The notes under the pieces were generated by a model, which had not been told where the DNA came from, did no database searches, and was given only the letters and a program-made list of their open reading frames with translations. Both the position numbers and the translations under genes were made by a program. Shown here piece by piece: positions 578-45,973 of a stretch of 59,595 nt of DNA; the stretch's first letter is position 1, and each line of letters begins with the position of its first letter. The stretch is from sequence record DRR723986_2326. One strand, given 5' to 3'.

Positions 578-579
578 TC

Positions 580-17057: not shown

Positions 17058-17060
17058 GAT

Positions 17061-17504: not shown

Positions 17505-17527
17505 ATTTGCCTCTTTGTTCAGTGGAT

Positions 17528-19528: not shown

Positions 19529-19643
19529 GTCTGTCCCTTTGATGCGTTCGATGACTCAAAAGGCTGGCAAGGCGCTGGCGTAGGTCTGAATTTTATTATC
19601 TTTTTCGGAATCGATGTTCCGATGACTTGAGTTCGTTAATAAA

Positions 19644-19662
19644 GCTTACTAAAACAGTCAAC
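19644..19662. promoter_or_regulatory. Putative iron-responsive operator (Iron-Rhodo-box-like)
   Basis: GCTTACTAAAACAGTCAAC, i.e. TTGAC-N7-GTAAG on the minus strand; imperfect dyad between divergent heme uptake operons. Confidence 0.55.
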
Positions 19663-19762
19663 ATATTTTGTTGTTATGTGAACAACTCTGCGAGCAACAG
19701 CGTCACATTTGTGATGGTTAGCCAGCGTTCCCCTAAAATATCAAGACAGGATGGGAATTCCT

Positions 19763-20818: not shown

Positions 20819-21699
20819 TGTCGTTTGACGGATTCCCCTCTTTAAGGCGCGGGTTGATCCTAGGCGCTGTGTTGATTTGTGCGGGGCAAGTTGCCTTTGC
20901 CCAAGAGCGCGCAAACCGGATCATCGCCATTGGCAATTCGGTGACCGAAATCGTTTACGAACTGGGACAGGACCGCCGTTTGGCGGGCCGAGACCGGACC
21001 TCGACCTATCCGGCCGAGGCAAATGGGTTGCCCGATATTGGCTATATGCGGGCTTTGTCCCCTGAAGGCGTATTGTCGGTTGATCCAGACATGATCCTGT
21101 CCGTCGAAGGCGCGGGCCCGCCCGAGGCGATTGCCGTGCTGGAGAAGGCAAATGTGCGGTACGTGCCGATCCCCGAGGTGTTCACACGAGATGGGATTGT
21201 CACCAAAATCCACATGGTCGGTGAAGCACTGAACGAGGCCGAGGCCGCTGATGCGTTGGCGCGCCGGGTTGGTGCAGAGATCGATGCGGCAGAGGCGGCG
21301 GCCATTGATGCAATTCAAGGATCGCCAAAGCGGGTGATGTTCATTCTGTCGATCCAAGGCGGGCGGATTATGGCATCCGGGACAGATACCGCGGCGGATG
21401 GGATTATCCGTATGTCAGGGGGCACAAATGCCGTCACCGGGTTTTCCGGCTATAAACCCGTGACGCCCGAGGCTGTGACCCAAGCCGCCCCGGACGTGAT
21501 CCTGATGATGGATCGCGGCGGCGATCATGGGGTTGCAACGGCCGAGCTGTTCTCGATCCCGGCCATGATGTTGACCCCAGCGGCGCGGACCAAAACCGTG
21601 GTGCGGATGGATGGGGCGCATTTGTTGGGCTTTGGCCCACGCACCGCAAGCGCCATCACGCAACTGTCTGACGCGTTGTCCGGAGGGTCAGAGTCGTGA
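20818..21699 (+). CDS. hmuT: Heme ABC transporter periplasmic binding protein
   Basis: VTEIVYELG, IGYMRALSPEG (heme-ligating Tyr) and LLGFGPR motifs. Confidence 0.92.
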   Translation: MSFDGFPSLRRGLILGAVLICAGQVAFAQERANRIIAIGNSVTEIVYELGQDRRLAGRDRTSTYPAEANGLPDIGYMRALSPEGVLSVDPDMILSVEGAGPPEAIAVLEKANVRYVPIPEVFTRDGIVTKIHMVGEALNEAEAADALARRVGAEIDAAEAAAIDAIQGSPKRVMFILSIQGGRIMASGTDTAADGIIRMSGGTNAVTGFSGYKPVTPEAVTQAAPDVILMMDRGGDHGVATAELFSIPAMMLTPAARTKTVVRMDGAHLLGFGPRTASAITQLSDALSGGSES

Positions 21700-22772
21700 C
21701 GCTTGCAACGGATCAGGCGATTCCGGCTGCGCCGTTGCTGGATCGGCGTGTGCTGGCGCGGCGCATGACGTGGATCTTGGTGGCGGTGCTTGTCATCGTC
21801 AGCCTCACCAGTCTGACAATGGGGGCCTCGGGGGCCTCGGTCACGCGCTTGATGTCCGATTTGATCGCTGGACGGGCTGTTGAACAACTGGACCAGATCG
21901 TTCTGTGGGACATTCGTCTGCCAAGATTGATGATGGGTATGCTCGTGGGTGCGGGATTGGCCGTGTCGGGTGTGGTGATGCAGGGTTTGTTTCGCAACCC
22001 CTTGGCCGATCCCGGCATTGTTGGTGTCGGGGCAGGGGCCGCGCTGGGGGCTGTATCTGCTATCGTTTTGGGGGGTCTTTTGCCGGTCGCGATCCGGGAT
22101 TGGGCCGGAAGCTGGTTGATTATCCTGTCCGCATTTCTGGGGGGCTGGGGATCAACGTTGATCTTGTACCGGGTTGCGACCCGGCGGGGTCAGACCTCGG
22201 TCGCGACGATGTTATTGGCGGGGATTGCCCTAGGTGCGTTGGCGGGTGCGGTTGGCGGTATCCTTGTCTATATGGCGGATGACCGGCAATTGCGCGACCT
22301 GACATTTTGGGGGATGGGATCGCTGGCTGGCGCCACATGGTCCAAGGTTCTGAGCCTGGCCCCGGTTGTTCTGGGCGCAATGGCCATAAGCCTGATTTTG
22401 GCGCGCAGTTTGAACGGTTTGGCCCTGGGCGAGGCTGTGGCGAACCACATTGGAATTCCCGTTCAGCGGACCAAAAACATCGCAATCCTGACGGTTGCGG
22501 CGGCAACGGGGGCGGCGGTGGCTGTGTCGGGCGGCATTGGGTTCATCGGGATTGTCGTGCCGCATGTGCTGCGCCTGTCCACAGGGCCGGACCATCATCG
22601 TTTGTTGCCAAATGCGGCCCTGTTGGGCGCGGCTTTGCTGTTGGTCGCGGATATGATCAGTCGCACGATTATAGCCCCGGCTGAGCTGCCGATTGGGATT
22701 ATTACCGCCATTCTGGGCGCTCCGGTCTTTCTTTGGATCTTGCTGCGCCGTCATGGCGTGATGGGGATGTAG
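21696..22772 (+). CDS. hmuU: Heme ABC transporter permease (FecCD family)
   Basis: IRLPR, FRNPLADPG, IGFIGIVVPH and ELPIGIITA motifs. Confidence 0.93.
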   Translation: MTLATDQAIPAAPLLDRRVLARRMTWILVAVLVIVSLTSLTMGASGASVTRLMSDLIAGRAVEQLDQIVLWDIRLPRLMMGMLVGAGLAVSGVVMQGLFRNPLADPGIVGVGAGAALGAVSAIVLGGLLPVAIRDWAGSWLIILSAFLGGWGSTLILYRVATRRGQTSVATMLLAGIALGALAGAVGGILVYMADDRQLRDLTFWGMGSLAGATWSKVLSLAPVVLGAMAISLILARSLNGLALGEAVANHIGIPVQRTKNIAILTVAAATGAAVAVSGGIGFIGIVVPHVLRLSTGPDHHRLLPNAALLGAALLLVADMISRTIIAPAELPIGIITAILGAPVFLWILLRRHGVMGM

Positions 22773-22774
22773 CT

Positions 22775-23557
22775 ATGAAAGCAACAGATATACGCGTGCG
22801 TATTGGGCGCAAAGATATCCTGCATGGTGTGGATTTTGAGGCCGCGGCGGGGGAGGTCACCGCTATCATCGGGCCAAATGGGTCGGGGAAATCCACGCTG
22901 CTCAAGGCGATGACCGGTGAGGTGCCATATGAAGGCACGGTTGAATTAAACGGTCAGGATATCCAATCCCTGCAACCTTGGGAGCTGGCCCCCGTGCGTG
23001 GGGTGCTGCCGCAATCTGCCGCTGTCGCCTTTCCCTTTACGGTGCTTGAGATTGTGCGTTTGGGGTTGATGGAGGGTTGGGCGGCACAAGAGCGCGCACT
23101 GCCGTCGCAGGCGTTGGCGCGGGTGGATTTGGCTGGGTTCGAAAACCGGTTCTTTCAGGATCTATCGGGTGGTGAACAGCAACGTGTTCAGCTGGCCCGC
23201 GTCTTGGCGCAGGTCTGGCAGCCGGTGATAGAGGGCACGCCTCGGTGGCTGTTTCTGGACGAACCTGTGGCCAGTCTGGACATTGCGCACCAATTCACGG
23301 TTCTGGATGTTGCGCGCGCCTTTGCCGATCAGGGCGGCGGGGTTGTGCTGGTGATGCATGATCTGAACCTGACTGCCATGTTTGCGGATCAAATCTCGGT
23401 CATGCATGCGGGGCGTGTTCATTGTCATGGATCCCCTCAGCAAACCTTGACCCAAGACATGCTGCGCGACGTCTATGGCTGTGAGTTGAATCTGAACGCG
23501 GTGCCGTCAGATAGCGCGCCGTTCTTGCTGCCCCAGATGCGCCAAATGCACGCTTAG
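22775..23557 (+). CDS. hmuV: Heme ABC transporter ATPase
   Basis: GPNGSGKST, LSGGEQQRVQLARVLAQ, LDEP and HDLNL motifs. Confidence 0.93.
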   Translation: MKATDIRVRIGRKDILHGVDFEAAAGEVTAIIGPNGSGKSTLLKAMTGEVPYEGTVELNGQDIQSLQPWELAPVRGVLPQSAAVAFPFTVLEIVRLGLMEGWAAQERALPSQALARVDLAGFENRFFQDLSGGEQQRVQLARVLAQVWQPVIEGTPRWLFLDEPVASLDIAHQFTVLDVARAFADQGGGVVLVMHDLNLTAMFADQISVMHAGRVHCHGSPQQTLTQDMLRDVYGCELNLNAVPSDSAPFLLPQMRQMHA

Positions 23558-32869: not shown

Positions 32870-33634
32870 ATGACCGACAACATTCTCATCACGACCGAGG
32901 CGCGCGTCACCACCGTGACCATCGATCGCCAAGATAAAAAGAATGCCCTCACGCAGGCGATGTACGGTGCCATGGCCGATGCCATCGAAGAGTATGGCCA
33001 AACCGATACTGCCCGCGCGCTGATCCTGACCGGGGCGGGCGACATGTTCACCGCAGGCAATGACTTGCAGGATTTCTCGATCCAAGGAAATGGACAAAGC
33101 GAAGAGATGCCACCAGTGGGTCGGTTTCTGAATGCGATCCGGGACTGCCCTAAACCGTTGATCGCGGCCGTGAATGGGCCGGGGATCGGGATCGGTCTGA
33201 CCATGCTGCTGCATTGCGATCTGGTCTACGCAGGTCAAAGCGCCACGCTCGGCGCGCCGTTTGTCAAACTGGGGCTGGTGCCCGAGGCCGGGGCCTCGAT
33301 CCTGTTGCCCGCATCCGTGGGCATGGCGGTGGCCAACGATATTCTGTTGGCTGGTCGGACCCTGACCGCTGACGAAGCTCATAGCTACGGCTTGGTCGCG
33401 CGTGTCTTTGCGGATGCCGATCTGATGACAGAGGTTCAAGCCATTGCCCAGTCAGTTGCCCAATCTGCCCCAGTTGCATTACGCCGGTCCAAGGCATTGA
33501 TCCGTAATCAGCAGAGCCAGATTGCCGACCACATGGCAGCTGAAATTGGCGTGTTTGTAGAGCAGCTCAAATCCCCGGATTTTGCCGAAAGCGTTGCGGC
33601 GCTGATGCAGAAACGCGCGCCAAATTACGGCTGA
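32870..33634 (+). CDS. Enoyl-CoA hydratase/isomerase (crotonase family)
   Basis: KKNAL, FTAGNDL, GIGLTMLLHCD and GLVPEAGAS motifs. Confidence 0.92.
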   Translation: MTDNILITTEARVTTVTIDRQDKKNALTQAMYGAMADAIEEYGQTDTARALILTGAGDMFTAGNDLQDFSIQGNGQSEEMPPVGRFLNAIRDCPKPLIAAVNGPGIGIGLTMLLHCDLVYAGQSATLGAPFVKLGLVPEAGASILLPASVGMAVANDILLAGRTLTADEAHSYGLVARVFADADLMTEVQAIAQSVAQSAPVALRRSKALIRNQQSQIADHMAAEIGVFVEQLKSPDFAESVAALMQKRAPNYG

Positions 33635-33639
33635 CACAC

Positions 33640-33669
33640 TGTTGCTTACCGTCGCTAGGGTAAGCAACA
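33640..33669 (+). terminator. Stem-loop immediately after the crotonase gene
   Basis: Perfect 11-bp inverted repeat TGTTGCTTACC-N8-GGTAAGCAACA; no immediate U-tract. Confidence 0.55.
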
Positions 33670-33791
33670 CCTGCCCATTTTCTAAGCGCAGCGGGATGTA
33701 CCAGAGTGTTTTGTGTTCATCCCGTGCCTTAGCCCGTTCAACAGCCTGCAAAAGACTGTAGGTGCCTCGGGTTTGTTCCTATGCCAAGTGG

Positions 33792-34376
33792 GTGCATACA
33801 GATCTAAAAATTCTTGTTGTTGAGCCAGAGCCCACAAAAGCGCGCGAAATTGTCGGGGCGCTGATGATTGGGGGGTGGTCAGATGTGACTGTCATTTCCG
33901 ATTTCACCGCGCTGGTCCGGGCTTTGCAAAAGCACGAACCCGACATTGTTCTGATTGATCTGGCCGATCCTGATCGGGCCACGTTGGAGCACCTGAGCCT
34001 TGTGTCCAATGCCAAGGCGCGCCCCGTTGCAATGTTTGTGGATCACACCGACGCGGCCATGACCCAAGCAGCGATTTCATCCGGGCTAAGCGCCTATGTG
34101 GTGAATGGGTTGCAAATGAATCGGATCAAGCCCGTTCTTGAAACAGCGATCGCCCGTTTTGGGATGTATCGGAAAATGCAGTCCGAGTTGGAGACCGCAC
34201 AGCGGGCTTTGACAGATCGTAAAACAATCGATCGGGCCAAGGGCCTTTTGATGCGGGCCCGGCAGATCCCCGAAGAAGAGGCGTATGGGCTGCTGCGCAA
34301 AACCGCGATGAACCAAGGGCGCAAAGTTATTGATGTCGCGACCGCCCTTGTTACCTCGGCTGAGCTGCTGAAATGA
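33792..34376 (+). CDS. nasT: ANTAR-domain antiterminator NasT
   Basis: Receiver-like domain (PDIVLIDL, RPVAMFVD, GLSAYVV) plus ANTAR RKTIDRAKGLLM...EAY..LRKTAM; probable GTG start; upstream of the nas operon. Confidence 0.93.
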   Translation: MHTDLKILVVEPEPTKAREIVGALMIGGWSDVTVISDFTALVRALQKHEPDIVLIDLADPDRATLEHLSLVSNAKARPVAMFVDHTDAAMTQAAISSGLSAYVVNGLQMNRIKPVLETAIARFGMYRKMQSELETAQRALTDRKTIDRAKGLLMRARQIPEEEAYGLLRKTAMNQGRKVIDVATALVTSAELLK

Positions 34377-34530
34377 AGACGCCCCCGGTAGAAAGTGGGG
34401 ATCTCAGACAGGCATTCTGGGCTTTGCCATGAGAGTTGGCTCAACACAGGGTCAGATGGTTCTTGGCTCTTATGTCTTTCATGATGGCACAGTTTTTGAC
34501 TTTGGACCAAGGTCGCTGCCTAAGGATTAG
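34373..34530 (+). pseudogene. nasS: Relic of the nitrate sensor nasS (large internal deletion plus frameshift)
   Basis: ATG overlaps the nasT stop (ATGA) and gives MKTPPV... then a stop after 19 codons; a second frame encodes GILGFAMRVGSTQGQMVLGSYVFHDGTVFDFGPRSLPKD*, resembling the NasS C-terminus as recalled. Confidence 0.65.
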
Positions 34531-34533
34531 GCG
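34517..34533. promoter_or_regulatory. Putative NtrC-type binding site
   Basis: TGCCTAAGGATTAGGCG, i.e. CGCC-N9-GGC on the minus strand, with dyad GCCTAA/TTAGGC; upstream of the nas leader. Confidence 0.45.
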
Positions 34534-34616
34534 ATGTGCTGCAATGCAGCAAAAATGCTGCACCTGCACGCATCTCTTCATTGTCTACCGCCCTCGGTCA
34601 CGACACACTGAACCCA

Positions 34617-34679
34617 GGGCAAAGACGCCCGCCGAGACCGGCAAAGATGTTGGTCGATGAATAAAGAGCAAAGCCGCTC
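34617..34679 (+). promoter_or_regulatory. ANTAR-binding RNA leader with three hexaloop hairpins
   Basis: GGGC-AAAGAC-GCCC (34617-34630), GACCGGC-AAAGAT-GTTGGTC (34636-34655) and GAGC-AAAGCC-GCTC (34666-34679); every loop has A1 and G4 with a C-G closing pair. Confidence 0.88.
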
Positions 34680-34732
34680 GATTGTGCATGCCCCTCCTCC
34701 TGCGTGCAGCAATCGAGCGGCTTTTTGTTTTT
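34670..34732 (+). terminator. Intrinsic terminator / attenuator of the nas leader
   Basis: AAAGCCGCTCGATTG pairs with CAATCGAGCGGCTTT; upper stem TGCATGC/GCGTGCA; U-tract TTTTTGTTTTT; overlaps the third ANTAR hairpin. Confidence 0.88.
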
Positions 34733-34747
34733 CAGAAGGGTGAAGAG

Positions 34748-36115
34748 ATGAGTTTTATCAAATGGATCAGTGCGTCAGTTGCACTGTTCGCCAGCCCCGC
34801 CATGGCGGAGCTTTTAGATCTGGAAAAAGACGAGCTGAAATTTGGGTTTATCAAATTGACCGATATGGCTCCTTTGGCAATCGCCTATGAACAGGGCTAT
34901 TTCGAAGACGAAGGTCTGTTTGTGACGCTGGAATCCCAAGCCAACTGGAAGGTTCTGCTGGATGGCGTCATCGACGGGCAACTTGATGGCGCGCATATGC
35001 TGGCCGGGCAACCGCTGGCGGCAACCATTGGATATGGCACGCAGGCCCATATCATCACGCCCTTTTCGATGGATCTGAACGGCAACGGCATTACCGTGTC
35101 CAATGAGATTTGGGAGCAGATGCTGCCCCATGTGCCAAAGATGGCGGATGGTCGTCCGCAACACCCCATCAGTGCCAGTGCTTTGGCCCCTGTTGTTGAA
35201 TCCTACAAAGACGATGGTGTGTCGTTCAACATGGGTATGGTGTTTCCTGTCTCGACCCACAATTACGAATTGCGCTATTGGCTGGCAGCCGGCGGCCTGC
35301 AACCCGGGTATTATTCACCCGAAGACGTGAGCGGACAGATCGGCGCGGATGTGTTTTTGTCCGTCACGCCACCCCCACAAATGCCATCAACGATGGAGGC
35401 GGGGACAATCTTTGGCTATTGCGTTGGCGAACCTTGGAACCAGCAGGCGGTTTTCAAAGGCATCGGTGTGCCGGTGATTACGGATTACGATCTTTGGAAA
35501 AACAACCCTGAAAAGGTATTTGGCATCACTGCTGAGTTTGCTCAGGAGCACCCGAACACCACGATTGCCCTGACCAAAGCGTTGATCCGCGCGGCGATCT
35601 GGCTGGATGAAAACGACAACGCCAACCGTGGCGAGGCGGTCGAGATACTGGCGCGATCCGAATATGTCGGGGCCGATGCAGACGTCATTGCCAATTCAAT
35701 GACCGGCACCTTTGAGTATGAAAAAGGCGACGTGCGCCCCGCGCCTGATTTTAATGTGTTCTTCCGCCACTATGCGACGTACCCGTTTTATTCGGATGCC
35801 ATTTGGTACTTGAGCCAGATGCGCCGTTGGGGGCAGATCCCAGAGCAGAAAACGGATGCTTGGTTCAAAGAAACAGCAAAATCGGTTTATCGCCCTGACA
35901 TTTATCTGACCGCCGCGCGCAGCTTGGTTGACCAAGGTCTGGCGCAAGAAGCCGATTTCCCATGGGACAGCGATGGCTTCAAAGCGCCAACGCCTGCCGC
36001 TGATATCATCGACGGTATCCCCTATGACGGGCGCAATCCCAATGCCTATCTCGACAGTCTGCCGATCGGCTTGAAAGGTGGGCAAGTCATCGTGGGCTCA
36101 GACGTTCAAGGCTAA
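34748..36115 (+). CDS. nrtA: Nitrate ABC transporter substrate-binding protein (NrtA/CmpA family)
   Basis: [34 protein letters not shown] and YCVGEPWN motifs; signal peptide from ATG 34748. Confidence 0.93.
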
Positions 36116-36186: not shown

Positions 36187-37260
36187 ATGACGGTCATCGA
36201 CCCAGATTCCCTTACAGCAGACGCACGTCGCGCGCGTCGGTTTACCCGGATCAACAAAGCAGATGCTTGGCTCCAAGCGGTCGGGCTGGCGTGGGTGACA
36301 CCCATTCTCAAGGCTGCCGCAGGGGACAATCCGCGCGCGCAACTGTCCGAGATTTGGCGATTGTTGGGGGTGCCCGTTCTGGCAATCCTTATTTTCCTTG
36401 CTATGTGGGCCGCATTGGCCCCCAAGGTACAAACCTCTTTGGGGGCGATCCCGGGCCCGGCGCAGGTGGTCGAGCAGGCGATCAACCTGAACACCGATGC
36501 GGTGCGTGAGCGGGCGAAAGAGGCTGCGTTTTATGACCGCCAAGACGCGCGCAATGCCAAATTGATTGCCAATGGCAAGGCCGACAAGGTCAAAAACCGC
36601 ACCTATACGGGCAAGCCGACCTATTATCAGCAGATCTGGACGTCGATCAAAACGGTGTTCTTTGGGTTTCTGTTTGCCTCGGTCATTGCCATTCCCTTGG
36701 GGATCATGGCGGGTCTGTCCGCCACGGCAAACGCTGCGATCAATCCGCTGATCCAGATCTTTAAACCGGTCAGCCCGTTGGCGTGGCTGCCGATTGTCAC
36801 CATGGTCGTATCGGCAATGTATGCCACAAACGATGGGATGTTTTCGAAGTCATTTCTTGTGTCTGCGATCACCGTCACCCTGTGTTCCTTGTGGCCAACA
36901 TTGATCAACACCGCGCTTGGCGTGTCATCAATCGACAAAGATCTGGTGAGCGTGTCCAAGGTTTTGAAAATGTCGACTTACGCCAAGATCACCAAGCTGG
37001 TTTTGCCCTCGGCCCTGCCGTTGATCTTCACCGGATTGCGCCTGTCGCTGGGGGTCGGGTGGATGGTTTTGATTGCTGCCGAAATGTTGGCGCAGAACCC
37101 AGGGCTGGGAAAATTCGTCTGGGATGAGTTCCAAAACGGATCGTCGCAGTCGTTGGCCAAGATCATGGTGGCCGTCTTTACCATCGGGATCATCGGGTTC
37201 TTGTTGGATCGTGTCATGTACGTTCTGCAATCCATGTTCACCTTTTCCGAGAACAGGTAA
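36187..37260 (+). CDS. nrtB: Nitrate ABC transporter permease
   Basis: FKPVSPLAWLP, WPTLINTALG, GLRLSLGVGWMVLIAAEML and GLGKFVWDE motifs. Confidence 0.93.
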   Translation: MTVIDPDSLTADARRARRFTRINKADAWLQAVGLAWVTPILKAAAGDNPRAQLSEIWRLLGVPVLAILIFLAMWAALAPKVQTSLGAIPGPAQVVEQAINLNTDAVRERAKEAAFYDRQDARNAKLIANGKADKVKNRTYTGKPTYYQQIWTSIKTVFFGFLFASVIAIPLGIMAGLSATANAAINPLIQIFKPVSPLAWLPIVTMVVSAMYATNDGMFSKSFLVSAITVTLCSLWPTLINTALGVSSIDKDLVSVSKVLKMSTYAKITKLVLPSALPLIFTGLRLSLGVGWMVLIAAEMLAQNPGLGKFVWDEFQNGSSQSLAKIMVAVFTIGIIGFLLDRVMYVLQSMFTFSENR

Positions 37261-37265
37261 TCGTC

Positions 37266-38942
37266 ATGAGCATTCTTCGTTTTCAAAACGTGTCCAAGGG
37301 ATTTGGGACCGGAACCGACCGGGTTGAAATCCTGAGGGATATCAACCTTGAGATCGCACAGGGGGAATTCGTTGCTATCCTTGGGTTTTCTGGGACGGGT
37401 AAATCGACCCTGATGAATCTGATTGCCGGGCTTGAAACCCCGGACACGGGCAAGGTCATGTTCAAAGGCGCGCCTGTTGTGGGGCCGGGGCCCGAACGTG
37501 GGCTTGTGTTTCAAAGCTATTCCCTGATGCCGTGGCTAACAGTGGGGGGCAATGTTGGGCTGGCGGTCGATGCGGTTTTTCCCAAACTGTCCAAAGCCGA
37601 ACGTCAGGCCAAGATCGAACATTATGTTGCAATGGTGGGTCTGTTGCATGCGATCGGCCGCCGCCCTTCGGAGTTATCGGGTGGAATGCGGCAGCGGGTG
37701 TCTGTTGCGCGGGCTTTGGCGATGAATCCTGAGATGCTGCTGCTGGACGAACCACTGTCCGCGCTTGATGCGTTGACGCGGGCGAACCTTGCGGATGAGA
37801 TTTTGGAGATCTGGGAAAAGGAAAAGAAAACCTGCATTCTTATCACCAATGATGTCGACGAGGCCATTCTGCTGGCGGACCGGATCATTCCTCTGAACCC
37901 TGACGGCACACTGGCTGACCCCGTTGAGGTGGCTATTCCGCGCCCGCGTGATCGCTCTGACATGAATGATGATGCCAGTTTCAAACGCTTGCGGGCACAG
38001 GTCACGCAATACCTGATGGATGTGGGCATCGCCACCAAAGTGGAAGACAGTCGCTTGCTGCCAGATGTGACGCCAATACACGGGGTACCAAAGGTGGTGG
38101 CCCAAGCCCAAAAGGCCGGGATCGAAGAGCGCTTTCTCACGTTTTCAGAGCTGCACAAGGTCTATCCAACGCCCAAAGGTCCGCTGACTGTGGTCGAGGA
38201 TTTTAATCTTAAGATCAACAAGGGGGAATTCATTAGCCTGATCGGGCATTCCGGATGTGGCAAATCCACGGTCCTGACGATGGCTGCGGGATTGAACGCA
38301 ATTTCCAAGGGCGCGATCCGATTGGATGGCTGGAACGTAGAGGGCGCAGACCCCGAACGTGCGGTTGTGTTCCAATCACCGAACCTGTTCCCTTGGCTGA
38401 CTGCCAAAGAGAACGTGGCGATTGGCGTCGACAAGGTTTACCCGCAGGCCTCGCAGGCTGAACGCCAGGATGTGATTGAATACTACTTGGAACGGGTTGG
38501 CCTTGCGGACAGTATGGATCAGCAAGCCTCCAGCATGTCGAACGGGATGAAGCAGCGCGTTGGCATTGCGCGCGCCTTTGCCCTGTCGCCCAAATTGCTG
38601 TTGCTGGATGAACCTTTCGGGATGCTGGACAGCCTGACCCGGTGGGAGCTGCAAGAGGTCCTGATGGAGGTTTGGTCGCGCACCAAAGTCACCGCGATCT
38701 GTGTCACCCATGATGTCGACGAGGCGATTTTGTTGGCGGACCGGGTGGTGATGATGACCAACGGCCCGCAGGCGACAATCGGTAAGATCACGGATGTGAA
38801 ACTGCCACGCCCACGCACCCGCAAGGCGTTGCTGGCGCATCCCGACTATTACACCTACCGCGCCGAGGTTCTTGATTTCTTGGAGGAATACGAACACGGC
38901 GCCAAGCCCAAACCGAAACCAACACATATTGCGGCGGAGTAA
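37266..38942 (+). CDS. Nitrate ABC transporter ATPase with two fused nucleotide-binding domains (NrtC/D-like)
   Basis: Two Walker A motifs (GFSGTGKST, GHSGCGKST) and two LLDEP Walker B motifs in one 558-aa ORF. Confidence 0.92.
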   Translation: MSILRFQNVSKGFGTGTDRVEILRDINLEIAQGEFVAILGFSGTGKSTLMNLIAGLETPDTGKVMFKGAPVVGPGPERGLVFQSYSLMPWLTVGGNVGLAVDAVFPKLSKAERQAKIEHYVAMVGLLHAIGRRPSELSGGMRQRVSVARALAMNPEMLLLDEPLSALDALTRANLADEILEIWEKEKKTCILITNDVDEAILLADRIIPLNPDGTLADPVEVAIPRPRDRSDMNDDASFKRLRAQVTQYLMDVGIATKVEDSRLLPDVTPIHGVPKVVAQAQKAGIEERFLTFSELHKVYPTPKGPLTVVEDFNLKINKGEFISLIGHSGCGKSTVLTMAAGLNAISKGAIRLDGWNVEGADPERAVVFQSPNLFPWLTAKENVAIGVDKVYPQASQAERQDVIEYYLERVGLADSMDQQASSMSNGMKQRVGIARAFALSPKLLLLDEPFGMLDSLTRWELQEVLMEVWSRTKVTAICVTHDVDEAILLADRVVMMTNGPQATIGKITDVKLPRPRTRKALLAHPDYYTYRAEVLDFLEEYEHGAKPKPKPTHIAAE

Positions 38943-38945
38943 GAC

Positions 38946-41372
38946 ATGACTCAGAAACTTGTTGTTATCGGCGCGGGCATGGCCTCGGGCCGGGTGCTGG
39001 AACACCTTTTCGAAGCCCATGCAGATTTTAATGTGACCCTGTTCAATGCCGAAGAGCGCGGCAACTATAATCGGATCATGCTGTCGCCCGTTCTGTCGGG
39101 CGAAAAAACCTATGATGACATCGTCACCCATGATGCGCGGTGGTATGCGGACCATGGGGTGACCTGCCATTTTGGCACGCATGTCACTGCAATTGACCGT
39201 CACGCAAAGACGGTCACCAGCGCGCGGGGCACGGTGGCGTATGACAAGCTGATCATTGCGACCGGCTCTGCCCCGTTTATCATTCCCGTTCAGGGCAAGG
39301 ATCTGCCCGGCGTTGTCACCTATCGCGATCTGGACGACACCAACGCGATGATCGAAGCATCGCAAACGGGAGGCAAAGCGGTTGTGATTGGTGGGGGCTT
39401 GCTGGGGCTGGAAGCCGCCGCAGGTCTGGCCGAACGCGGCATGGATGTGACCGTGTTGCACCTGATGGGCCATCTGATGGAGCGGCAACTGGACGAGGCG
39501 GCTGGGTTCCTTTTGCGGCGTGATCTGGAAAAGCGCGGGATCAAAGTGAAATGCCGCGCTTCAACTGCGGCGATCCTAGGCAGCACCCATGTCGAAGGTG
39601 TGATGCTGGAAGACAACGAAGGGCTTGAGGCCGATCTGGTCGTCATGGCGGTGGGTATTCGGCCAGAAACGCGGCTGGCAACGGATGCAGGGATTGAAGT
39701 TGCGCGGGGCATTGAGGTCAACGCCCAATTGCAGACGTCGGACCCTGACATCTATGCGGTGGGGGAATGTGTTGAGCTGGATGGTCAGTTGTTTGGCCTT
39801 GTCGCGCCCTTGTATGATCAAGCCAAAGTTCTCGCGAACGACTTGATGGACGGTGCGGGTGCATTCATCCCCAAAGAGCTTTCGACCAAGTTGAAGGTGA
39901 CGGGGTGTGATTTGTTCAGCGCGGGCGATTTTAGCGCCGGTGAGGGGCGCGAAGATATTGTGTTCCGTGATCCTGCGCGGGGTGTTTATCGGCGTCTGGT
40001 GATCGAGAATGATTGCCTTGTTGGGGCGGTCATGTACGGGGACACCACCGACAGCAATTGGTTCTTTGGCTTGATCCGCGACAAGACCGAAATCGCCGAG
40101 ATGCGCGATACGCTTATCTTTGGCCCCGCTTATCAGGGGGGATCCCCTGCGGACCCGCTCTCAGCCGTTGCAGCCTTACCGCGTGATGCGGAAATCTGTG
40201 GGTGTAACGGCATATGCAAAGGTCAGATCGAAGATGCAATCGCTGCGGGTGCCACCGATCTGGGCGCCGTGCGGGATGTTACAAAAGCCTCGGGATCGTG
40301 TGGCACTTGCACAGGGTTGGTCGAACAGGTTCTTGCCGTCACCTTGGGCGATGAGTTTGTCTTACCCACAGCGCAAAGCATGTGCGGATGCACCGACATG
40401 ACCCACGAAGACGTTCGGCGCATGATCAAGTCACAGAAACTGAAGTCCATGCCCGCAGTTTGGCAGGAATGCGGGTGGAAAACGTCGTGTGGCTGCCACA
40501 TTTGCCGGCCGGCTTTGAATTTCTATCTGCTCGCAGATTGGCCGCTAGACTATCGCGATGATCCGCAATCGCGGTTTATCAATGAACGCAAGCACGCCAA
40601 TATTCAGAAAGACGGCACCTTTAGCGTCGTTCCCAGAATGTGGGGCGGTATCACCACTCCGGACGAGTTGCGCGCAATTGCGGATGCAGCGGACAAATAC
40701 GATGTGCCAACCGTCAAAGTCACAGGCGGTCAGAGGATCGACTTGTTGGGGGTCAAAAGCGAAGATCTGCCAGCCATTTGGTTCGATCTCAATCAGGCTG
40801 GCATGGTGTCGGGTCATGCCTATTCCAAAGGTCTGAGAACAGTGAAAACCTGTGTTGGCACCGATCATTGCCGATTTGGCACACAAGACAGCACCGGGCT
40901 TGGTATCAAGTTGGAAAAGGCGCTTTGGGGATCTTGGACTCCGCATAAGTTAAAGCTGGCAGTGTCTGGCTGCCCCCGCAATTGCGCCGAAGCCACGTGT
41001 AAGGACATTGGCGTCGTGTGCGTCGACAGCGGGTTTCAGATCAGCATCGGGGGGGCCGCGGGCATGGATGTTCGCGAAACCCAATTGCTGTGTCAGGTTG
41101 CCACTGAACAAGAGGCGATGGACGTCATCAAAGCGGTCACGCAGTCTTATCGAGAGAATGCGAAATACCTTGATCGTATCTATAAATGGTTGGCTAAAGT
41201 TGGACTTGAATGGATCCAGGCTCAAGTCACTGATCCAGATGTCCGTGCCGGTTTGGTCGATCGGTTTGACCTGTCGCAATCCATTTACCGGACGGACCCT
41301 TGGGCGGAACATGTCGCCAAATCCGAGACTTATCAACCGATTGCAAACCTTACATTGGAGGCTGCGGAATGA
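38946..41372 (+). CDS. nirB: Assimilatory NADH nitrite reductase large subunit
   Basis: FAD/NAD motifs GAGMA and GGGLLGLE; BFD-like Cys clusters; siroheme/4Fe-4S ligands CVGTDHC and SGCPRNC. Confidence 0.96.
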   Translation: MTQKLVVIGAGMASGRVLEHLFEAHADFNVTLFNAEERGNYNRIMLSPVLSGEKTYDDIVTHDARWYADHGVTCHFGTHVTAIDRHAKTVTSARGTVAYDKLIIATGSAPFIIPVQGKDLPGVVTYRDLDDTNAMIEASQTGGKAVVIGGGLLGLEAAAGLAERGMDVTVLHLMGHLMERQLDEAAGFLLRRDLEKRGIKVKCRASTAAILGSTHVEGVMLEDNEGLEADLVVMAVGIRPETRLATDAGIEVARGIEVNAQLQTSDPDIYAVGECVELDGQLFGLVAPLYDQAKVLANDLMDGAGAFIPKELSTKLKVTGCDLFSAGDFSAGEGREDIVFRDPARGVYRRLVIENDCLVGAVMYGDTTDSNWFFGLIRDKTEIAEMRDTLIFGPAYQGGSPADPLSAVAALPRDAEICGCNGICKGQIEDAIAAGATDLGAVRDVTKASGSCGTCTGLVEQVLAVTLGDEFVLPTAQSMCGCTDMTHEDVRRMIKSQKLKSMPAVWQECGWKTSCGCHICRPALNFYLLADWPLDYRDDPQSRFINERKHANIQKDGTFSVVPRMWGGITTPDELRAIADAADKYDVPTVKVTGGQRIDLLGVKSEDLPAIWFDLNQAGMVSGHAYSKGLRTVKTCVGTDHCRFGTQDSTGLGIKLEKALWGSWTPHKLKLAVSGCPRNCAEATCKDIGVVCVDSGFQISIGGAAGMDVRETQLLCQVATEQEAMDVIKAVTQSYRENAKYLDRIYKWLAKVGLEWIQAQVTDPDVRAGLVDRFDLSQSIYRTDPWAEHVAKSETYQPIANLTLEAAE

Positions 41373-41704
41373 GTGACTGGATCGATATTGCTGCGCTGGA
41401 GGCCATCCCGCAGCGGGGGGCGCGGTTGGTGAAAACCGTCCACGGGTGTGTCGCTGTTTTCCGCACAGGGGCGGACGCGGTCTATGCGCTCGACAATGCA
41501 TGCCCGCATAAACAGGGGCCATTGGCGGACGGAATCGTGCATGGCGATGCCGTTACATGCCCGCTGCACAATTGGGTGATTTCGCTTGAAACCGGGGCTG
41601 TTCAGGGCACAGACGAGGGGCAGGTGAATACCTATCCGGCCAAGGTTCGGGACGGGCGCGTCTTGTTGGACGTTGATTTTCTGCACCGGCGGGGGGCCGC
41701 ATGA
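41369..41704 (+). CDS. nirD: Nitrite reductase small Rieske subunit
   Basis: CPHKQGPL and CPLHNW motifs; ATGA overlap. Confidence 0.94.
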   Translation: MSDWIDIAALEAIPQRGARLVKTVHGCVAVFRTGADAVYALDNACPHKQGPLADGIVHGDAVTCPLHNWVISLETGAVQGTDEGQVNTYPAKVRDGRVLLDVDFLHRRGAA

Positions 41705-44280
41705 ACCCGATCCGCACGACGTGCCCTTATTGCGGAGTTGGCTGCGGTATACTTGCCCAAGCGGACGGGACCATTCAGGGCGATCCTGATCATCCCGCCA
41801 ATTTCGGGCGACTGTGTTCCAAAGGCGCCGCACTTGGCGACACGCTTGATCTGGAGGGTCGATTGCTACATCCCCAAATCGGCGGGAAAGATGCCGATTG
41901 GGAAGCGGCCCTAGATCTTGTCGCCACAAAATTCCAATCCGCGATCCAAACATATGGACCGGACAGCGTGGCGTTTTATGTGTCAGGTCAATTGTTGACC
42001 GAAGACTACTATGTCGCGAACAAGCTGATGAAAGGCTTTATCGGATCTGGTAACATCGACACCAATTCGCGGTTGTGTATGGCGTCTTCGGTCGCGGGGC
42101 ATAAGCGGGCGTTTGGAACTGATACGGTGCCCGGCACCTATGCGGATCTGGAACAAGCTGATCTGATCGTTTTGGTCGGCTCCAATTTGGCATGGTGCCA
42201 TCCGGTGTTGCACCAGCGTATTCAGGCCGCCAAGGCCGCGCGGCCCAGTTTGCAGGTCATCAATATTGATCCACGAAAGACTGCGACAACAACGATGGCA
42301 GATACGCATCTGCAAATCGCACCCGATGGCGATATCGTGCTGTTCAATGGGCTTTTGGCTTACCTGGCCGAGAGCGGCTCGATTGATCACGCCTATGTTG
42401 AAAACCATGTTTCCGGGTTTCAGGATGCTGTCACAGGGGCGCGGACCTCAACCCCGACTGACAGTGGGCTGTCGCACCAAGAACTGGCACGATTTTATCA
42501 GGCGTGGGCCAGTACGCAAAAGGTCGTTACTGTTTATTCCCAAGGTGTTAACCAATCGGCTTGCGGCACCGATAAGGTCAACGCCATCCTGAATTGCCAC
42601 CTTGCAACAGGGCGCATTGGCAAGCCGGGATCTGGGCCGTTTTCCGTGACGGGTCAACCCAATGCCATGGGCGGGCGCGAGGTTGGCGGCTTGGCAAATA
42701 CCTTGGCCAGTCACCTCGAGATCGAAAACCCTGCGCATCGGGACGCGGTGCGGGGGTTTTGGGCCAGTCCCACGATGAGCCGCACACCGGGGCTAAAGGC
42801 CGTCGATCTGTTTCAGGCCTGCGCCAAGGGAAAGATCAAAGCGTTGTGGATCATGTCGACCAATCCGGCCGTCAGCATGCCGGACGTGACCCAAGTAACC
42901 CGTGCGATCAAAAACACCCCCTTTGTTGTAGTGTCCGATATCATGGCCCGCACCGATACCGGAGATCTCGCCGACGTTTTGCTGCCAGCCACAGGGTGGG
43001 GGGAAAAAGCGGGAACCGTCACAAACTCCGAACGCCGTATTTCGCGGCAACGCCCCTTTTTGCCTGCACCTATAAATGCGCGACCGGATTGGCAGATCAT
43101 ATGTGATGTTGCGTCCCGCATGGGCTGGGCTGAGGCTTTTGATTATTCGTCCCCCGCGGCGATTTTTGCCGAATATGTTGCACTGTCTGCGATTCCACGC
43201 GCGCAGGGTCTTGATCTGGACCTGAGCAGTTTTGAGGGGGTGGATTACGAGACGCTAGAGCCGACCCAGTGGCCAGAAAATGACACGCGGTTCTTTGCAA
43301 ATGGCACTTTCTATCACCCAGACGGTAAGGCGCGGATGTTAGCCATTGGTGCTCCGGCTCAACCGGAACACAGCGCGTTTCACCTGAACACCGGGCGGAA
43401 CCGGGATCAGTGGCACACCATGACCCGCACCGGCAAAGCACCGCGTTTGGGGGTGCATCTGGCCGAACCCTATGCCGAAATTCATCCCCAAGATGCGGCT
43501 GAGATCGGCGTGTCACACGGCGACATCCTGCATGTCGAAAGTGATCAGGGCAGGGCGCTGTTGCGGGCTTTGCTATCCGACAAAGTTCCCCAATCACAGC
43601 TGTTTGCCCCGATGCATTGGACCCGCCAGCAAAGCAATTCGGGTGTGGTGAATACGCTTACTGCGCCCGTTGTTGACCCGATTTCCGGTCAACCCGCGCT
43701 TAAATCCGGCAATGTGACCGCTCGCAAGTTTAACGCCAAATGGTACGCTTTCGCCGCCTCTTTGTACGAAATGCAATCTGCGGGCGACTATGGGGCGCGT
43801 GCGCGGACACACACCGGCTGGCAAGCCGAGCTCGCGGGCATTGAGCCAATCGAAGACTGGAGCGACTTTGCCAGATCCTTGTTTCAAACGCCAAAAGCAA
43901 GCGTCGCCATTTCGCAGGATTTACAAAGCGGACTCACTCGCGTTGCTCTGTCTCAGAACCGTCGGCTTGTTGGGTTGCTATTTGTGGGGCCGGAACCTGT
44001 GGCGCTTGCGCGGACACATGCTATTTCAGCAATTGGCAGCGAGACACCGGCATTACACAGCTTGGCTGGGCGGGACCCAAAGGGGCAATCCAACCCTGGA
44101 CCAACAGTCTGTGCCTGTATGAACGTGGGGACCAATACCGTGCGCGATGCCGTTTCCTCGGGGGCCTATTCAATTGATGATATAGGCAAGGTAACTGGCG
44201 CCGGTACAAGTTGTGGATCGTGCAAGCCAGAGCTAACAACAATTCTAGAGCAAGCCAAAACGCTGTCAGCAGCGGAGTAA
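41701..44280 (+). CDS. nasA: Assimilatory nitrate reductase catalytic subunit
   Basis: CPYCGVGC...LCSKG, NSRLCMAS, GQPNAMGGRE and TGRNRDQWHTMTRTG motifs; C-terminal CAC...CGSC. Confidence 0.95.
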   Translation: MNPIRTTCPYCGVGCGILAQADGTIQGDPDHPANFGRLCSKGAALGDTLDLEGRLLHPQIGGKDADWEAALDLVATKFQSAIQTYGPDSVAFYVSGQLLTEDYYVANKLMKGFIGSGNIDTNSRLCMASSVAGHKRAFGTDTVPGTYADLEQADLIVLVGSNLAWCHPVLHQRIQAAKAARPSLQVINIDPRKTATTTMADTHLQIAPDGDIVLFNGLLAYLAESGSIDHAYVENHVSGFQDAVTGARTSTPTDSGLSHQELARFYQAWASTQKVVTVYSQGVNQSACGTDKVNAILNCHLATGRIGKPGSGPFSVTGQPNAMGGREVGGLANTLASHLEIENPAHRDAVRGFWASPTMSRTPGLKAVDLFQACAKGKIKALWIMSTNPAVSMPDVTQVTRAIKNTPFVVVSDIMARTDTGDLADVLLPATGWGEKAGTVTNSERRISRQRPFLPAPINARPDWQIICDVASRMGWAEAFDYSSPAAIFAEYVALSAIPRAQGLDLDLSSFEGVDYETLEPTQWPENDTRFFANGTFYHPDGKARMLAIGAPAQPEHSAFHLNTGRNRDQWHTMTRTGKAPRLGVHLAEPYAEIHPQDAAEIGVSHGDILHVESDQGRALLRALLSDKVPQSQLFAPMHWTRQQSNSGVVNTLTAPVVDPISGQPALKSGNVTARKFNAKWYAFAASLYEMQSAGDYGARARTHTGWQAELAGIEPIEDWSDFARSLFQTPKASVAISQDLQSGLTRVALSQNRRLVGLLFVGPEPVALARTHAISAIGSETPALHSLAGRDPKGQSNPGPTVCACMNVGTNTVRDAVSSGAYSIDDIGKVTGAGTSCGSCKPELTTILEQAKTLSAAE

Positions 44281-44356
44281 GTCACGAGGGATACTCCGCT
44301 TGGTTTTATTCACATAACCCTGATTATAAGGCAATCTGCGAGGAGATGGGCACAGT

Positions 44357-45973
44357 TTAGGCCGTTCGATCTTGTAAGATCATGTCACTGGCCTTTTCGC
44401 CGATCATTATTGCTGGCGCGTTGGTGTTGCCGGAAACGATATCAGGCATGATCGAGGCATCCGCGACGCGCAGGCCAGAGATCCCGTGAACGCGCAAACG
44501 ATCATCGACCACGGCAAGCGCATCGCTGCCCATGCGGCAGGTGCTGGTCGGGTGATAGATCGTTTGGCTGATGTCACGGGCACATTGCAGCAATTCTTCG
44601 TCCGTTTCAGGATTGGTACTAGGCACATGCTCTCGGACAACAAAGGGGCTGAGCGCTTTGGTTTTTGTCATGGCGCGTGCGAATTTGATGGCGCGCACCG
44701 CGCACAATTGATCTGCGGTCGCAGACAGGTAGTTCGGCACGATTTTGGGATAGTCCGAAGCCTTTGGCGACGAAATGTGGATGGTGCCCCGGCTTTCTGG
44801 GCGCAGCTGGCACACAGAGGAGGTGATGCCAGAAAACGGGTGCATTTCGATGCCTGGTTTGTCCGCGCTGAGAGGTTGGAAATGGAATTGGATGTCGGGT
44901 GTTTCCAGCCCCTCCATCGATTTCGCAAAGATGCAGACCTGGCTGGCGCCCAAACTCATCGGGCCTTTGCGGAACAGGGCATAGTTCAACCCAATGCCCA
45001 TTCTTGGAATGAAACTGTTGATGGCATCATTCAGGGTTTGGGTGTTCACCTCGTACACCAGTCGAATTTGAAGGTGGTCCTGCAAGTTCTCACCAACGCC
45101 GGGTAACTCGTGGCGCACATCAACGCCCGCCGATTGCAGCACGTCCCCCTTACCGATCCCGGAAAGTTCCAAAATCTGGGGCGATCCGATGGCCCCGGCA
45201 GACAGAACGACCTCGCCACCCGGATTGAGCATCACGTCATGGCTCTGCCCTTTGGTGGTGTACCGCACCCCGATCACGCGCCGGGTTTCGGTGGCATCAA
45301 ACAGCAAAGTTTCGGTATGGGCGTGGGTGATGATTTCTAGATTGGGGCGCTTTTTGGCAGGGTTCAGAAAGGCGCGAGCACTTGAACAGCGGAACCCACC
45401 CCGAGCGGTTTGATGAAAGTACCCGGCCCCTTCTTGTTCTTTGCCATTGTAGTCATCGTTCTTGGGCACCCCCATTTCGACGGCTGCGTCGATAAAGGCG
45501 TCGGCGATGTCGCTGCGGGCGCGAATGAGCGAGACAGACAGCCCCCCATCAGCCCCGTGATGGTCCGTTTCGCCGAATTCATGAGATTCCGACCGTTTGA
45601 ACAAGGGCAGGACGTCGTCATGCCCCCATCCACGGTTGCCCATCTGAGCCCAGCGATCATAATCTTCTTTCTGTCCACGCACATAGAGCAAGCCATTGAT
45701 CGAGCTTGACCCCCCAAGGGTTTTGCCACGCGGCCAATCCAGCGACCGATTGTTCAGCCCCGGATCCTGTTCAGTTTTATAGCACCAGTCAGTATTTGGA
45801 TTGTGCAGAGTCTTAAAATACCCAACCGGGATGTGGATCCACGGGTTAATGTCTTTGCCACCAGCCTCAAGCAGAACAACTTTGATCGCGGGGTCGGTGC
45901 TCAGGCGGTTTGCCACCACACATCCGGCGGATCCGGCTCCAACCACGATATAGTCGGCTTTTGGGGTCTGCAT
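44357..45973 (-). CDS. GMC oxidoreductase (choline dehydrogenase-like)
   Basis: GAGSAG, RGKTLGGSSSING, GENLQDH, YHPTSTC and GNTNAP motifs. Confidence 0.92.
   Translation of the reverse strand: MQTPKADYIVVGAGSAGCVVANRLSTDPAIKVVLLEAGGKDINPWIHIPVGYFKTLHNPNTDWCYKTEQDPGLNNRSLDWPRGKTLGGSSSINGLLYVRGQKEDYDRWAQMGNRGWGHDDVLPLFKRSESHEFGETDHHGADGGLSVSLIRARSDIADAFIDAAVEMGVPKNDDYNGKEQEGAGYFHQTARGGFRCSSARAFLNPAKKRPNLEIITHAHTETLLFDATETRRVIGVRYTTKGQSHDVMLNPGGEVVLSAGAIGSPQILELSGIGKGDVLQSAGVDVRHELPGVGENLQDHLQIRLVYEVNTQTLNDAINSFIPRMGIGLNYALFRKGPMSLGASQVCIFAKSMEGLETPDIQFHFQPLSADKPGIEMHPFSGITSSVCQLRPESRGTIHISSPKASDYPKIVPNYLSATADQLCAVRAIKFARAMTKTKALSPFVVREHVPSTNPETDEELLQCARDISQTIYHPTSTCRMGSDALAVVDDRLRVHGISGLRVADASIMPDIVSGNTNAPAIMIGEKASDMILQDRTA

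What the first reader, a model, noticed from the sequence alone, without database searches (positions are those of the whole stretch)
34373..34530. nasS collapsed to a 158-bp relic: a natural 'nitrate-blind' assimilation switch
Seen: where nasS normally follows nasT, an ATG overlaps the nasT stop (MKTPPV..., stop after 19 codons). A different frame encodes ...VGSTQGQMVLGSYVFHDGTVFD...*, which resembles the NasS C-terminus as I recall it, so roughly 1 kb seems deleted. nasT, the leader and all structural genes are intact. Known: in Paracoccus denitrificans and Azotobacter vinelandii, NasS holds NasT inactive until nitrate or nitrite binds, and nasS mutants express nas without inducer. Inference: this strain antiterminates nas constitutively under nitrogen control only, or uses another sensor. 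The relic is too short for the ORF track and would be missed by annotation.
Basis: partly seen in the sequence, partly recalled or inferred. Interest (0 to 1): 0.75.

Follow-up and report, generated by a model that had tools for sequence, protein, structure and literature searches.

The report
Nitrate sensor gene deleted, antiterminator kept
A marine bacterium has permanently lost the gene for the sensor that normally keeps its nitrate-use genes off until nitrate appears, yet keeps the activator, its RNA target and the enzymes, so the genes probably switch on whenever ammonium is short; the same loss has happened separately in a few relatives and points to the spot where sensor and activator touch.

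Summary
The relic is real. 34373-34530 holds about 11 N-terminal and 41 C-terminal codons of nasS, out of frame; about 1,033 bp are gone. One gap-free contig bridges the junction in 4 of 4 laid runs from 4 studies and in a JGI contig, so it is fixed in the species, not an artefact. The tail is decaying (D-to-Y at an invariant site), while NasT's RNA-binding residues, a three-hairpin ANTAR leader and nasB/nirD are intact. Nitrate-independent, Ntr-gated expression, as in Paracoccus nasS mutants, is the likeliest result (0.65) but is inferred: no genome and no expression data were available. Loss recurs: 3 other loci lack nasS, but it is rare (1 clean case among 162 nasT genomes). NasT Asp63 is invariant in 100 of 100 NasS-paired proteins and changed in 3 of 4 nasS-less lineages, a candidate NasS-contact residue. 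Against full function: the cluster also lacks ybiB-cysG, which 17 of 17 relatives have at least in part (cysG). 'Nitrate-blind' in print means nasT-null, the opposite phenotype. New variant of a known system; moderate interest.

The parts
33672..33688 (+). possible NtrC box upstream of nasT (weak)
   Evidence: 2 mismatches to the P. denitrificans consensus quoted in PMC5424462; 117 matches of that quality occur in the window, so weak alone; a similar motif lies at a similar place in relatives
33792..34376 (+). nasT, pseudo-receiver + ANTAR antiterminator, 194 aa; carries D63A and D174N relative to NasS-paired relatives
   Evidence: Pfam ANTAR and Response_reg; 81% to nearest intact relatives; RNA-binding residues kept
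34373..34405 (+). 5' relic of nasS, about 11 codons; start overlaps the nasT stop; the frame runs on out of register to a stop at 34430-34432
34403..34410 (+). deletion junction, about 1,033 bp removed, frame shifted; exact base not resolvable
   Evidence: comparison with L074; bridged in 4 of 4 runs and L073
34408..34530 (+). 3' relic of nasS, 41 codons to the ancestral stop; decayed; contains a 33-codon ATG-started ORF (34429-34530) whose ATG overlaps the stop of the 19-codon ORF
   Evidence: profile hit E 2.1e-5; tail score below all 29 intact tails
34518..34551 (+). two conserved palindromes over and just after the nasS stop; likely upstream regulatory sites of the nrtA promoter (inferred); may explain why deletions spare the 3' end
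   Evidence: conserved across the 11 aligned loci including nasS-less L010; no match to the NtrC consensus within 2 mismatches was found there
34617..34679 (+). three ANTAR hexaloop hairpins P1 34617-34630, P2 34636-34655, P3 34666-34679 (loops A1..G4)
   Evidence: 97.3% of cells paired, 9 of 15 pairs with double changes in 17 leaders; the only tandem ANTAR pairs found in the window
34671..34732 (+). intrinsic terminator whose 5' arm overlaps P3
   Evidence: fold of 34605-34735: -59.1 kcal/mol, z -6.4; conserved in relatives. The simple terminator scan missed it because the loop/stem exceeds its limits
34748..36115 (+). nrtA, nitrate-binding protein with an N-terminal signal-like segment
   Evidence: Pfam NMT1_2; 1 of 272 invariant sites changed
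36187..37260 (+). nrtB permease
   Evidence: TIGR01183 match, below its cut-off; 4 of 222 invariant sites changed
37266..38942 (+). nrtC/D fused double ATPase, without a nitrate-binding regulatory domain
   Evidence: TIGR01184 over cut-off; two ABC_tran stretches and no NMT1_2 among the Pfam families shown
38946..41372 (+). nasB/nirB nitrite reductase large subunit
   Evidence: TIGR02374 over cut-off; 0 of 412 invariant sites changed
41369..41704 (+). nirD small subunit
   Evidence: TIGR02378 over cut-off; 0 of 50 invariant sites changed
41701..44280 (+). nasA assimilatory nitrate reductase; last gene of the cluster here
   Evidence: molybdopterin oxidoreductase families; 15 of 357 invariant sites changed, dN/dS about 0.1

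Best explanation
nasS was inactivated by a deletion of about 1 kb that became fixed before today's strains of this marine Rhodobacteraceae species diverged; the remnant is decaying DNA, kept at its 3' end probably because that end abuts the nrtA regulatory region. With no NasS to sequester it, NasT is free whenever it is made, binds the three leader hairpins, blocks the terminator and lets nrtABC-nasB-nirD-nasA be expressed under nitrogen (Ntr) control alone, so the cell is pre-armed for nitrate or nitrite whenever ammonium is short. Shown here: the deletion, its fixation, decay of the relic, conservation of NasT's RNA-binding face, of the leader and of the core genes. Inferred: absence of any other sensor, Ntr control, and nitrate-independent expression (by analogy with lab mutants). 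Also inferred: NasT helix 3 (R62-D63-E66) is a NasS-contact surface released from constraint after the loss.
For: Relic and size. Fixed: 4 of 4 laid runs, 4 studies, each with 1-13 differing letters and no gap over the junction; L073, 17 differences in 1,732 columns, none in the relic. Decay: tail score 58.0 against 66.3-minimum, 82.7-mean for 29 distinct intact tails; 5 of 12 near-invariant tail columns changed. The excess of about 6 first/second-position changes in 44 sites over the sister (my arithmetic) suggests roughly 0.14 neutral changes per site since inactivation, well above the 1% between strains, yet nasB has no stop and 0 of 412 invariant sites changed. NasT branch dN about 0.08 against dS about 1; R143, K144, K150, E161, Y165, M173, equivalent to EutV's RNA-binding residues (PMC8934654 passages; alignment), are all kept. 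Leader; both strain differences inside the hairpins of L073 keep the motif. Recurrence: L010/G004, L079 and L093/G011 also put nrtA 330-500 bp after an intact nasT; G004 and G011 have no second NasS-like gene; starred branches of the NasT tree force at least 3 separate events. D63 is D in 73 of 73 plus 27 of 27 distinct NasS-paired NasT, but A/V here, A in L079, E in L093; chance of one invariant site being hit in 3 of 4 lineages about 0.005. Lab phenotype.
Against: No genome is held, so a second nasS or another sensor elsewhere is not excluded. No expression data. The cluster has lost ybiB-cysG, present after nasA in 16 of 17 and 17 of 17 relatives (cysG whole in 11, partial in 6); nitrite reductase needs sirohaem, so function depends on a cysG elsewhere. 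NasT (3 of 67 invariant sites), nrtB (4 of 222) and nasA (15 of 357) depart more than almost all relatives, and nasT shows 4 amino-acid to 4 silent differences against L073, which fits partial relaxation. The faster NasT branch was significant with 3 of 4 outgroups, but nrtA was also faster (1 of 4 significant). L010 keeps D63. The D63 statistic is post hoc on four lineages, and the window and L079 share other rare residues (Q158, N174), so their independence rests on one tree. The NtrC box is a weak match and no sigma-54 or sigma-70 promoter was identified.
Confidence: 0.65

Rival explanations
1. The cluster is in early decay: nasS, ybiB and cysG are already gone, nasA and nasT are drifting, and nitrate assimilation is weak, limited to nitrite, or on the way out.
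For: ybiB-cysG missing; nasA 15 of 357 and nasT 3 of 67 invariant sites changed; three family genomes show nasS loss or truncation together with broken nasT (G095, G201, G369).
Against: No stop or frameshift in about 10 kb; nasB 0 of 412, nirD 0 of 50, nrtA 1 of 272; nasA dN/dS about 0.1 in its catalytic part; the 4 strain differences in nrtA/nrtB that I classified are silent (most variant rows were not shown); leader intact.
Confidence: 0.13
2. NasT is still nitrate-gated, by a nasS copy elsewhere in the genome or by a different partner (stand-alone NIT or Cache sensor) or by phosphorylation.
For: The genome could not be searched. Earlier unchecked scan notes describe NasT-type proteins with NIT or Cache partners in other genomes. 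The receiver aspartate D56 is kept.
Against: No NIT or Cache family among the Pfam hits shown for 53 window ORFs. Two other nasS-less genomes have no second NasS-like gene and a single ANTAR protein, though they may be incomplete. A displaced nasS would be expected to keep D63. Positions 12, 84 and 106 lack the canonical phospho-receiver residues exactly as in NasS-paired relatives (canonical positions recalled), so no phospho-switch was gained.
Confidence: 0.12
3. Antitermination is constitutive but nitrate still sets the output through another layer (translation, protein stability, product feedback), so the strain remains partly inducible.
For: P. denitrificans nasS mutant activity still rose 13.5 to 24.6 units with nitrate; a translational layer is proposed in PMC5424462; c-di-GMP inhibits NasT in Pseudomonas (PMC10783516 passages).
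Against: In that mutant, protein and activity were present on all nitrogen sources except ammonium; c-di-GMP binding was reported only for Pseudomonas NasT.
Confidence: 0.07
4. The 33-residue ORF in the 3' relic is a working microprotein, or its translation is kept to carry ribosomes up to the ancestral stop.
For: Its ATG overlaps the stop of the 19-codon ORF; L079 also keeps an open 37-codon fusion ending at the ancestral stop; the relic differs at 0 sites in L073 and 1 listed site in the laid runs.
Against: Residues invariant in intact tails are changed here and differently in L079; L010 lost both start and stop and L093 has no relic; 0-1 differences in 158 bp is expected at 1% divergence.
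Confidence: 0.03

Closest known systems
NasS-NasT of Paracoccus denitrificans (PMC3795266, PMC5424462), and the engineered nasS mutant
   Same: nasT-(nasS) upstream of the nas operon, ATGA coupling, hairpin leader with terminator; the predicted state equals the lab nasS mutant.
   Different: Here the loss is natural, fixed across strains from several habitats and old enough for the relic to decay; ABC-type NrtABC uptake; ybiB-cysG absent; NasT D63 changed.
Bradyrhizobium diazoefficiens nos++ strains (nasS point mutants selected under N2O respiration; review PMC6712156, passages read)
   Same: Loss of NasS function frees NasT; this window also carries nosZDFYLX genes about 29 kb upstream.
   Different: Those are lab-evolved mutants and NasT acts on the nosR leader; the nosR leader lies outside this window, so a link could not be tested.
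AmiC-AmiR (PDB 1QO0) and EutV (6WSH/6WW6)
   Same: Receiver/coiled-coil/ANTAR fold (on a relative's NasT model); AmiC binds the pseudo-receiver of AmiR (PMC8934654 passage), the domain where D63 lies.
   Different: No NasS-NasT structure was found by sequence search of the PDB; EutV is phospho-regulated; this NasT has no known regulator left.
P. putida 'nitrate-blind' strain (PMC7261876 abstract)
   Same: The label only.
   Different: That strain lacks nasT and cannot use nitrate; the opposite of the state predicted here.

Membership tests
NasS-NasT nitrate-responsive antitermination system | NasT: receiver-like domain plus ANTAR domain with RNA-binding residues | tested here: met
NasS-NasT nitrate-responsive antitermination system | intact cytoplasmic NrtA-like sensor NasS next to nasT | tested here: not met
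   only 11 + 41 codons remain, out of frame
NasS-NasT nitrate-responsive antitermination system | NasS encoded elsewhere in the genome | not testable with these tools
   no genome held; absent from the 59.6 kb window
NasS-NasT nitrate-responsive antitermination system | leader with tandem A1/G4 hexaloop hairpins overlapping an intrinsic terminator | tested here: met
NasS-NasT nitrate-responsive antitermination system | downstream nitrate uptake and reductase genes | tested here: met
   sirohaem synthase gene not in the cluster
NasS-NasT nitrate-responsive antitermination system | NtrC-dependent nasT promoter | tested here: inconclusive
   one 2-mismatch box at 33672; 117 such matches window-wide
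NasS-NasT nitrate-responsive antitermination system | induction by nitrate/nitrite | not testable with these tools
   needs a culture; no expression data could be examined
NasS protein family (for the relic) | homology to the NasS C-terminal tail and N-terminus at the syntenic position | tested here: met
   E 2.1e-5; colinear with L074
NasS protein family (for the relic) | nitrate-binding NMT1_2 domain | tested here: not met
   no Pfam or NCBIfam hit on the relic frame; profile positions about 12-345 are missing
NasR (one-component NIT-ANTAR) | NIT sensor fused to ANTAR | tested here: not met
   194-aa protein with receiver-like domain only; matches NasR 4AKK only over the ANTAR part
Phospho-regulated REC-ANTAR (EutV type) | complete phospho-acceptor pocket | tested here: not met
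   D56 kept, but P12, D84 and G106 at the other pocket positions, as in NasS-paired relatives (canonical pocket recalled)

The most novel reading that the evidence does not exclude
Marine Rhodobacteraceae have repeatedly and adaptively converted the NasS-NasT switch into a sensor-free, Ntr-gated one; after each loss the NasS-docking patch of NasT (helix 3, R62-D63-E66) is released and the RNA face may be retuned (D174N, the position of an EutV RNA contact), so these natural losses map the unsolved NasS-NasT interface. A related set of database NasT proteins (P0017, P0018, P0032, P0049) that share P160 and N174 with the window and drift at 60-63 would then be a further nasS-less group, and free NasT might also raise N2O reductase expression as in Bradyrhizobium nos++ mutants.
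Probability: 0.3. Interest if true: 0.68.

Novelty: new variant of a known kind. Interest (0 to 1): 0.45.

Why it matters
It is a natural version of a well-studied lab mutant: nitrate-assimilation genes that no longer wait for nitrate, fixed in a species found in seawater, sediment and mat samples, and arrived at independently in other lineages. That bears on how marine heterotrophs compete for pulsed nitrate and warns that nasT in a genome does not imply nitrate induction. The comparative signal names one residue (NasT D63) to test for NasS binding, where no complex structure turned up in the PDB searches. The surprise is moderate: losing a negative regulator is a common evolutionary route and the phenotype is predictable from known mutants.

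Tried and rejected
Assembly artefact: rejected (decay pattern). Own-genome search for a second nasS: impossible, no genome held. RNA evidence: no RNA holder listed; no evidence either way. Only 4 of 19 holding runs were laid; X18 is low depth (2.8). Complex prediction of a relative's NasT dimer with NasS: no answer, score 0.27 against mark 0.32, no contacts given. AU test of window + L079 as one clade and a tree with the P proteins: not run, script machine lost. Context of P0032, P0049, P0084, P0017, P0018: could not be fetched (not sent; contig look-up closed). A second family draw returned a subset of the same genomes and added nothing. Plasmid searches gave 191 nasT and 158 nasS records at different thresholds with only 60 rows each shown; not usable for counting losses. 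Rfam: no match in the window. Sigma-70 scan: no promoter. T64R in L010 dropped as a signal, since T64 varies among intact proteins. Set aside from the D63 count: L006, L008, L055, L075, L083, L084, L090, L091, L100, L106 (nasS cut by contig end, fused, frameshifted or failing the adjacency filter). L008 (in-frame nasS-nrtA fusion) and L006 (nasS cut after about 11 codons, no nas genes behind it) were not counted as losses. Literature: searches nasS+nasT+nitrate+antitermination (16 papers), +Roseobacter (1), +lacks+pseudogene (0), +interface/AlphaFold, ANTAR+orphan+marine, AmiR/AmiC interface showed no report of natural nasS loss or of D63; most subscription papers are outside the library and no supplements were read.

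Full report
1. Observation. The ATG at 34373 overlaps the nasT stop and opens a 19-codon frame; the +2 frame carries the quoted peptide to TAG 34528-34530. Of 33 GTDB loci found with this NasT, 30 have a 379-444 aa NasS starting at or next to the same overlap. A profile of 29 of these hits the relic at positions 350-383 of 386 with E 2.1e-5 among 2,199 six-frame segments; only nrtA scores higher. Against the closest intact relative (L074, NasT 82%) the first 11 codons match the NasS start and the last 41 codons are colinear to the same stop; 1,191 minus 158 leaves about 1,033 bp deleted, out of frame.

2. Real and fixed. No genome is held for the window. Nineteen runs hold part of the stretch, from 10 studies; none is on record as RNA. 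I laid 4 of them, from 4 studies: in each a single contig spans the junction with no gap (X1 33800-34724, X2 33606-34914, X5 33716-34677, X18 34306-34512). JGI contig L073 has 17 differences in 1,732 columns and an identical relic. One of these sets could be the window's own source, but each listed contig differs from it at 1-13 letters.

3. The relic is decaying; the rest is not. The last 22 tail columns score 58.0 against a minimum of 66.3 among 29 distinct intact tails; E, T, I, D and F at near-invariant columns are changed. First- and second-position differences to seven outgroups average about 12.4 for the window and 6.4 for L074, an excess of about 6 in 44 sites (my arithmetic; wide error), i.e. 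roughly 0.14 neutral changes per site since inactivation, far more than the 1% between strains. Over that time nasB changed 0 of 412 invariant sites, nirD 0 of 50, nrtA 1 of 272, nrtC 2 of 329. NasT has branch dN about 0.08 against dS about 1 and keeps R143, K144, K150, E161, Y165 and M173, the equivalents of EutV's RNA contacts (PMC8934654 passages). The leader holds three A1/G4 hexaloop hairpins, the third overlapping a terminator (z -6.4); in 17 leaders 97.3% of cells pair and 9 of 15 pairs show double changes, beyond both controls (the structure was read from these sequences, which favours it over slid controls). Signs of relaxation exist too: nasT 3 of 67, nrtB 4 of 222 and nasA 15 of 357 invariant sites changed, at or near the top of the relatives' range, though nasA dN/dS is still about 0.1. 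The cluster ends at nasA, whereas 17 of 17 relatives have a cysG match behind it (whole in 11, partial in 6) and 16 of 17 a ybiB-like gene.

4. Recurrence. Among 401 family genomes, 162 have nasT and 157 of those a NasS hit. Of the other five, G080 has a diverged 341-aa NasS, G095, G201 and G369 have broken nasT, and only G011 (L093) has intact nasT with nrtA 353 bp behind it; G177 has a frameshift in nasS that may be an error. I did not inspect all 157 hits for frameshifts. Two more cases came from near relatives: L010 (Roseobacter MAG, G004) and metagenome contig L079, both with eroded C-terminal remnants. G004 and G011 show no other NasS-like gene and one ANTAR protein each, subject to incompleteness; G011's contig ends inside nrtA. 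Nine close relatives of G004 with NasT at 71-75% all keep nasS. On a 50-row NasT tree the window groups with intact L074, L001 and L002 (98/87); four events are needed, three forced by starred branches. An AU test could not be run.

5. A residue that tracks the loss. Asp63 of NasT, at the start of helix 3 of the pseudo-receiver (model of a relative), is Asp in 73 of 73 distinct NasS-paired proteins and 27 of 27 further ones. It is Ala here, Val in L073, Ala in L079 and Glu (with R62P, E66A) in L093; L010 keeps it. With 34 invariant sites the chance that one is hit in three lineages is about 0.005, a post hoc figure. Among 120 database homologues 114 have Asp; four exceptions are this species and two (P0032, P0084) lack context. 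AmiC binds the pseudo-receiver of AmiR, so a NasS contact is plausible; a helix-capping role is the alternative. N174 is shared by the window and L079 (1 of 73 intact) and by P0017, P0018, P0032 and P0049, which resemble the window at other sites too; shared ancestry and convergence are not separated.

6. Mechanism. Shown: sensor gone, activator and target intact. From print (passages only): in P. denitrificans the nasS mutant has 13.5 units on glutamate against under 0.5 in wild type, 24.6 with nitrate (PMC3795266), makes NasG and activity on all nitrogen sources except ammonium, and ammonium repression is Ntr-dependent (PMC5424462). The Azotobacter phenotype was seen only as cited there. Inferred: under ammonium shortage NasT is made, is free, antiterminates, and the operon is on without nitrate (0.65). 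Rivals: early decay (0.13), another sensor elsewhere (0.12), residual nitrate control at another layer (0.07), a functional microprotein (0.03). Because wild-type Paracoccus has similar nas mRNA on glutamate and nitrate, the test must be protein or activity.

7. Comparison and novelty. It works like a nasS-null NasS-NasT system but fails membership on the sensor. It is not NasR and has not gained a phospho-pocket. Six literature searches showed no report of natural nasS loss or of this residue; coverage excludes most subscription journals and no supplements were read. Earlier scan notes (unchecked) list NasT-type proteins with other partners in other genomes but nothing like this locus. 'Nitrate-blind' in print denotes nasT deletion (PMC7261876 abstract).

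8. Verdict. Observation confirmed; interpretation partly supported and untested at the expression level; new variant of a known kind; interest 0.45.

Noticed in passing
window 44280-44357: The nas cluster stops at nasA; the ybiB-like and cysG genes that follow in relatives are absent, and no cysG match lies in the window.
   Followed up: partly
window 1-4954: End of nosZ followed by nosD, an ABC permease (nosY), nosL and an ApbE (nosX) gene: an N2O reductase cluster 29 kb from nasT. In Bradyrhizobium nasS loss raises nos expression; the nosR leader is outside the window.
   Followed up: no
L008:1084-3072: In-frame nasS-nrtA fusion (NasS 3-332 joined to NrtA 160-455) in a MAG; recombination between paralogues or a chimeric assembly.
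   Followed up: no
L006:10573-14865: nasS breaks off after about 11 codons and no nas genes follow within 4.3 kb; the same N-terminal length as survives in the window.
   Followed up: no
L079:1941-2055: In-frame 37-codon fusion of the nasS start and tail, coupled to the nasT stop, in another nasS-less lineage.
   Followed up: partly
P0017, P0018, P0032, P0049: A related set of NasT proteins with E11G and drift at 60-63 that share P160 and N174 with the window; candidate further nasS-less group, context not available.
   Followed up: partly
L155, L159, L160, L164-L166: cysG behind nasA matches only over its methylase half in 6 of 17 relatives, so this gene varies in the clade.
   Followed up: no
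window 34617-34679: The leader has three ANTAR hairpins rather than the usual two; the third, invariant in 17 of 17 leaders, is the one overlapping the terminator.
   Followed up: yes
L097 (G080): A diverged 341-aa NasS that lacks the C-terminal tail altogether, suggesting the tail is dispensable in some lineages.
   Followed up: no
window 14722-23554: TonB, ExbB, TonB-dependent receptor, HemS and an iron ABC transporter: a haem uptake cluster.
   Followed up: no
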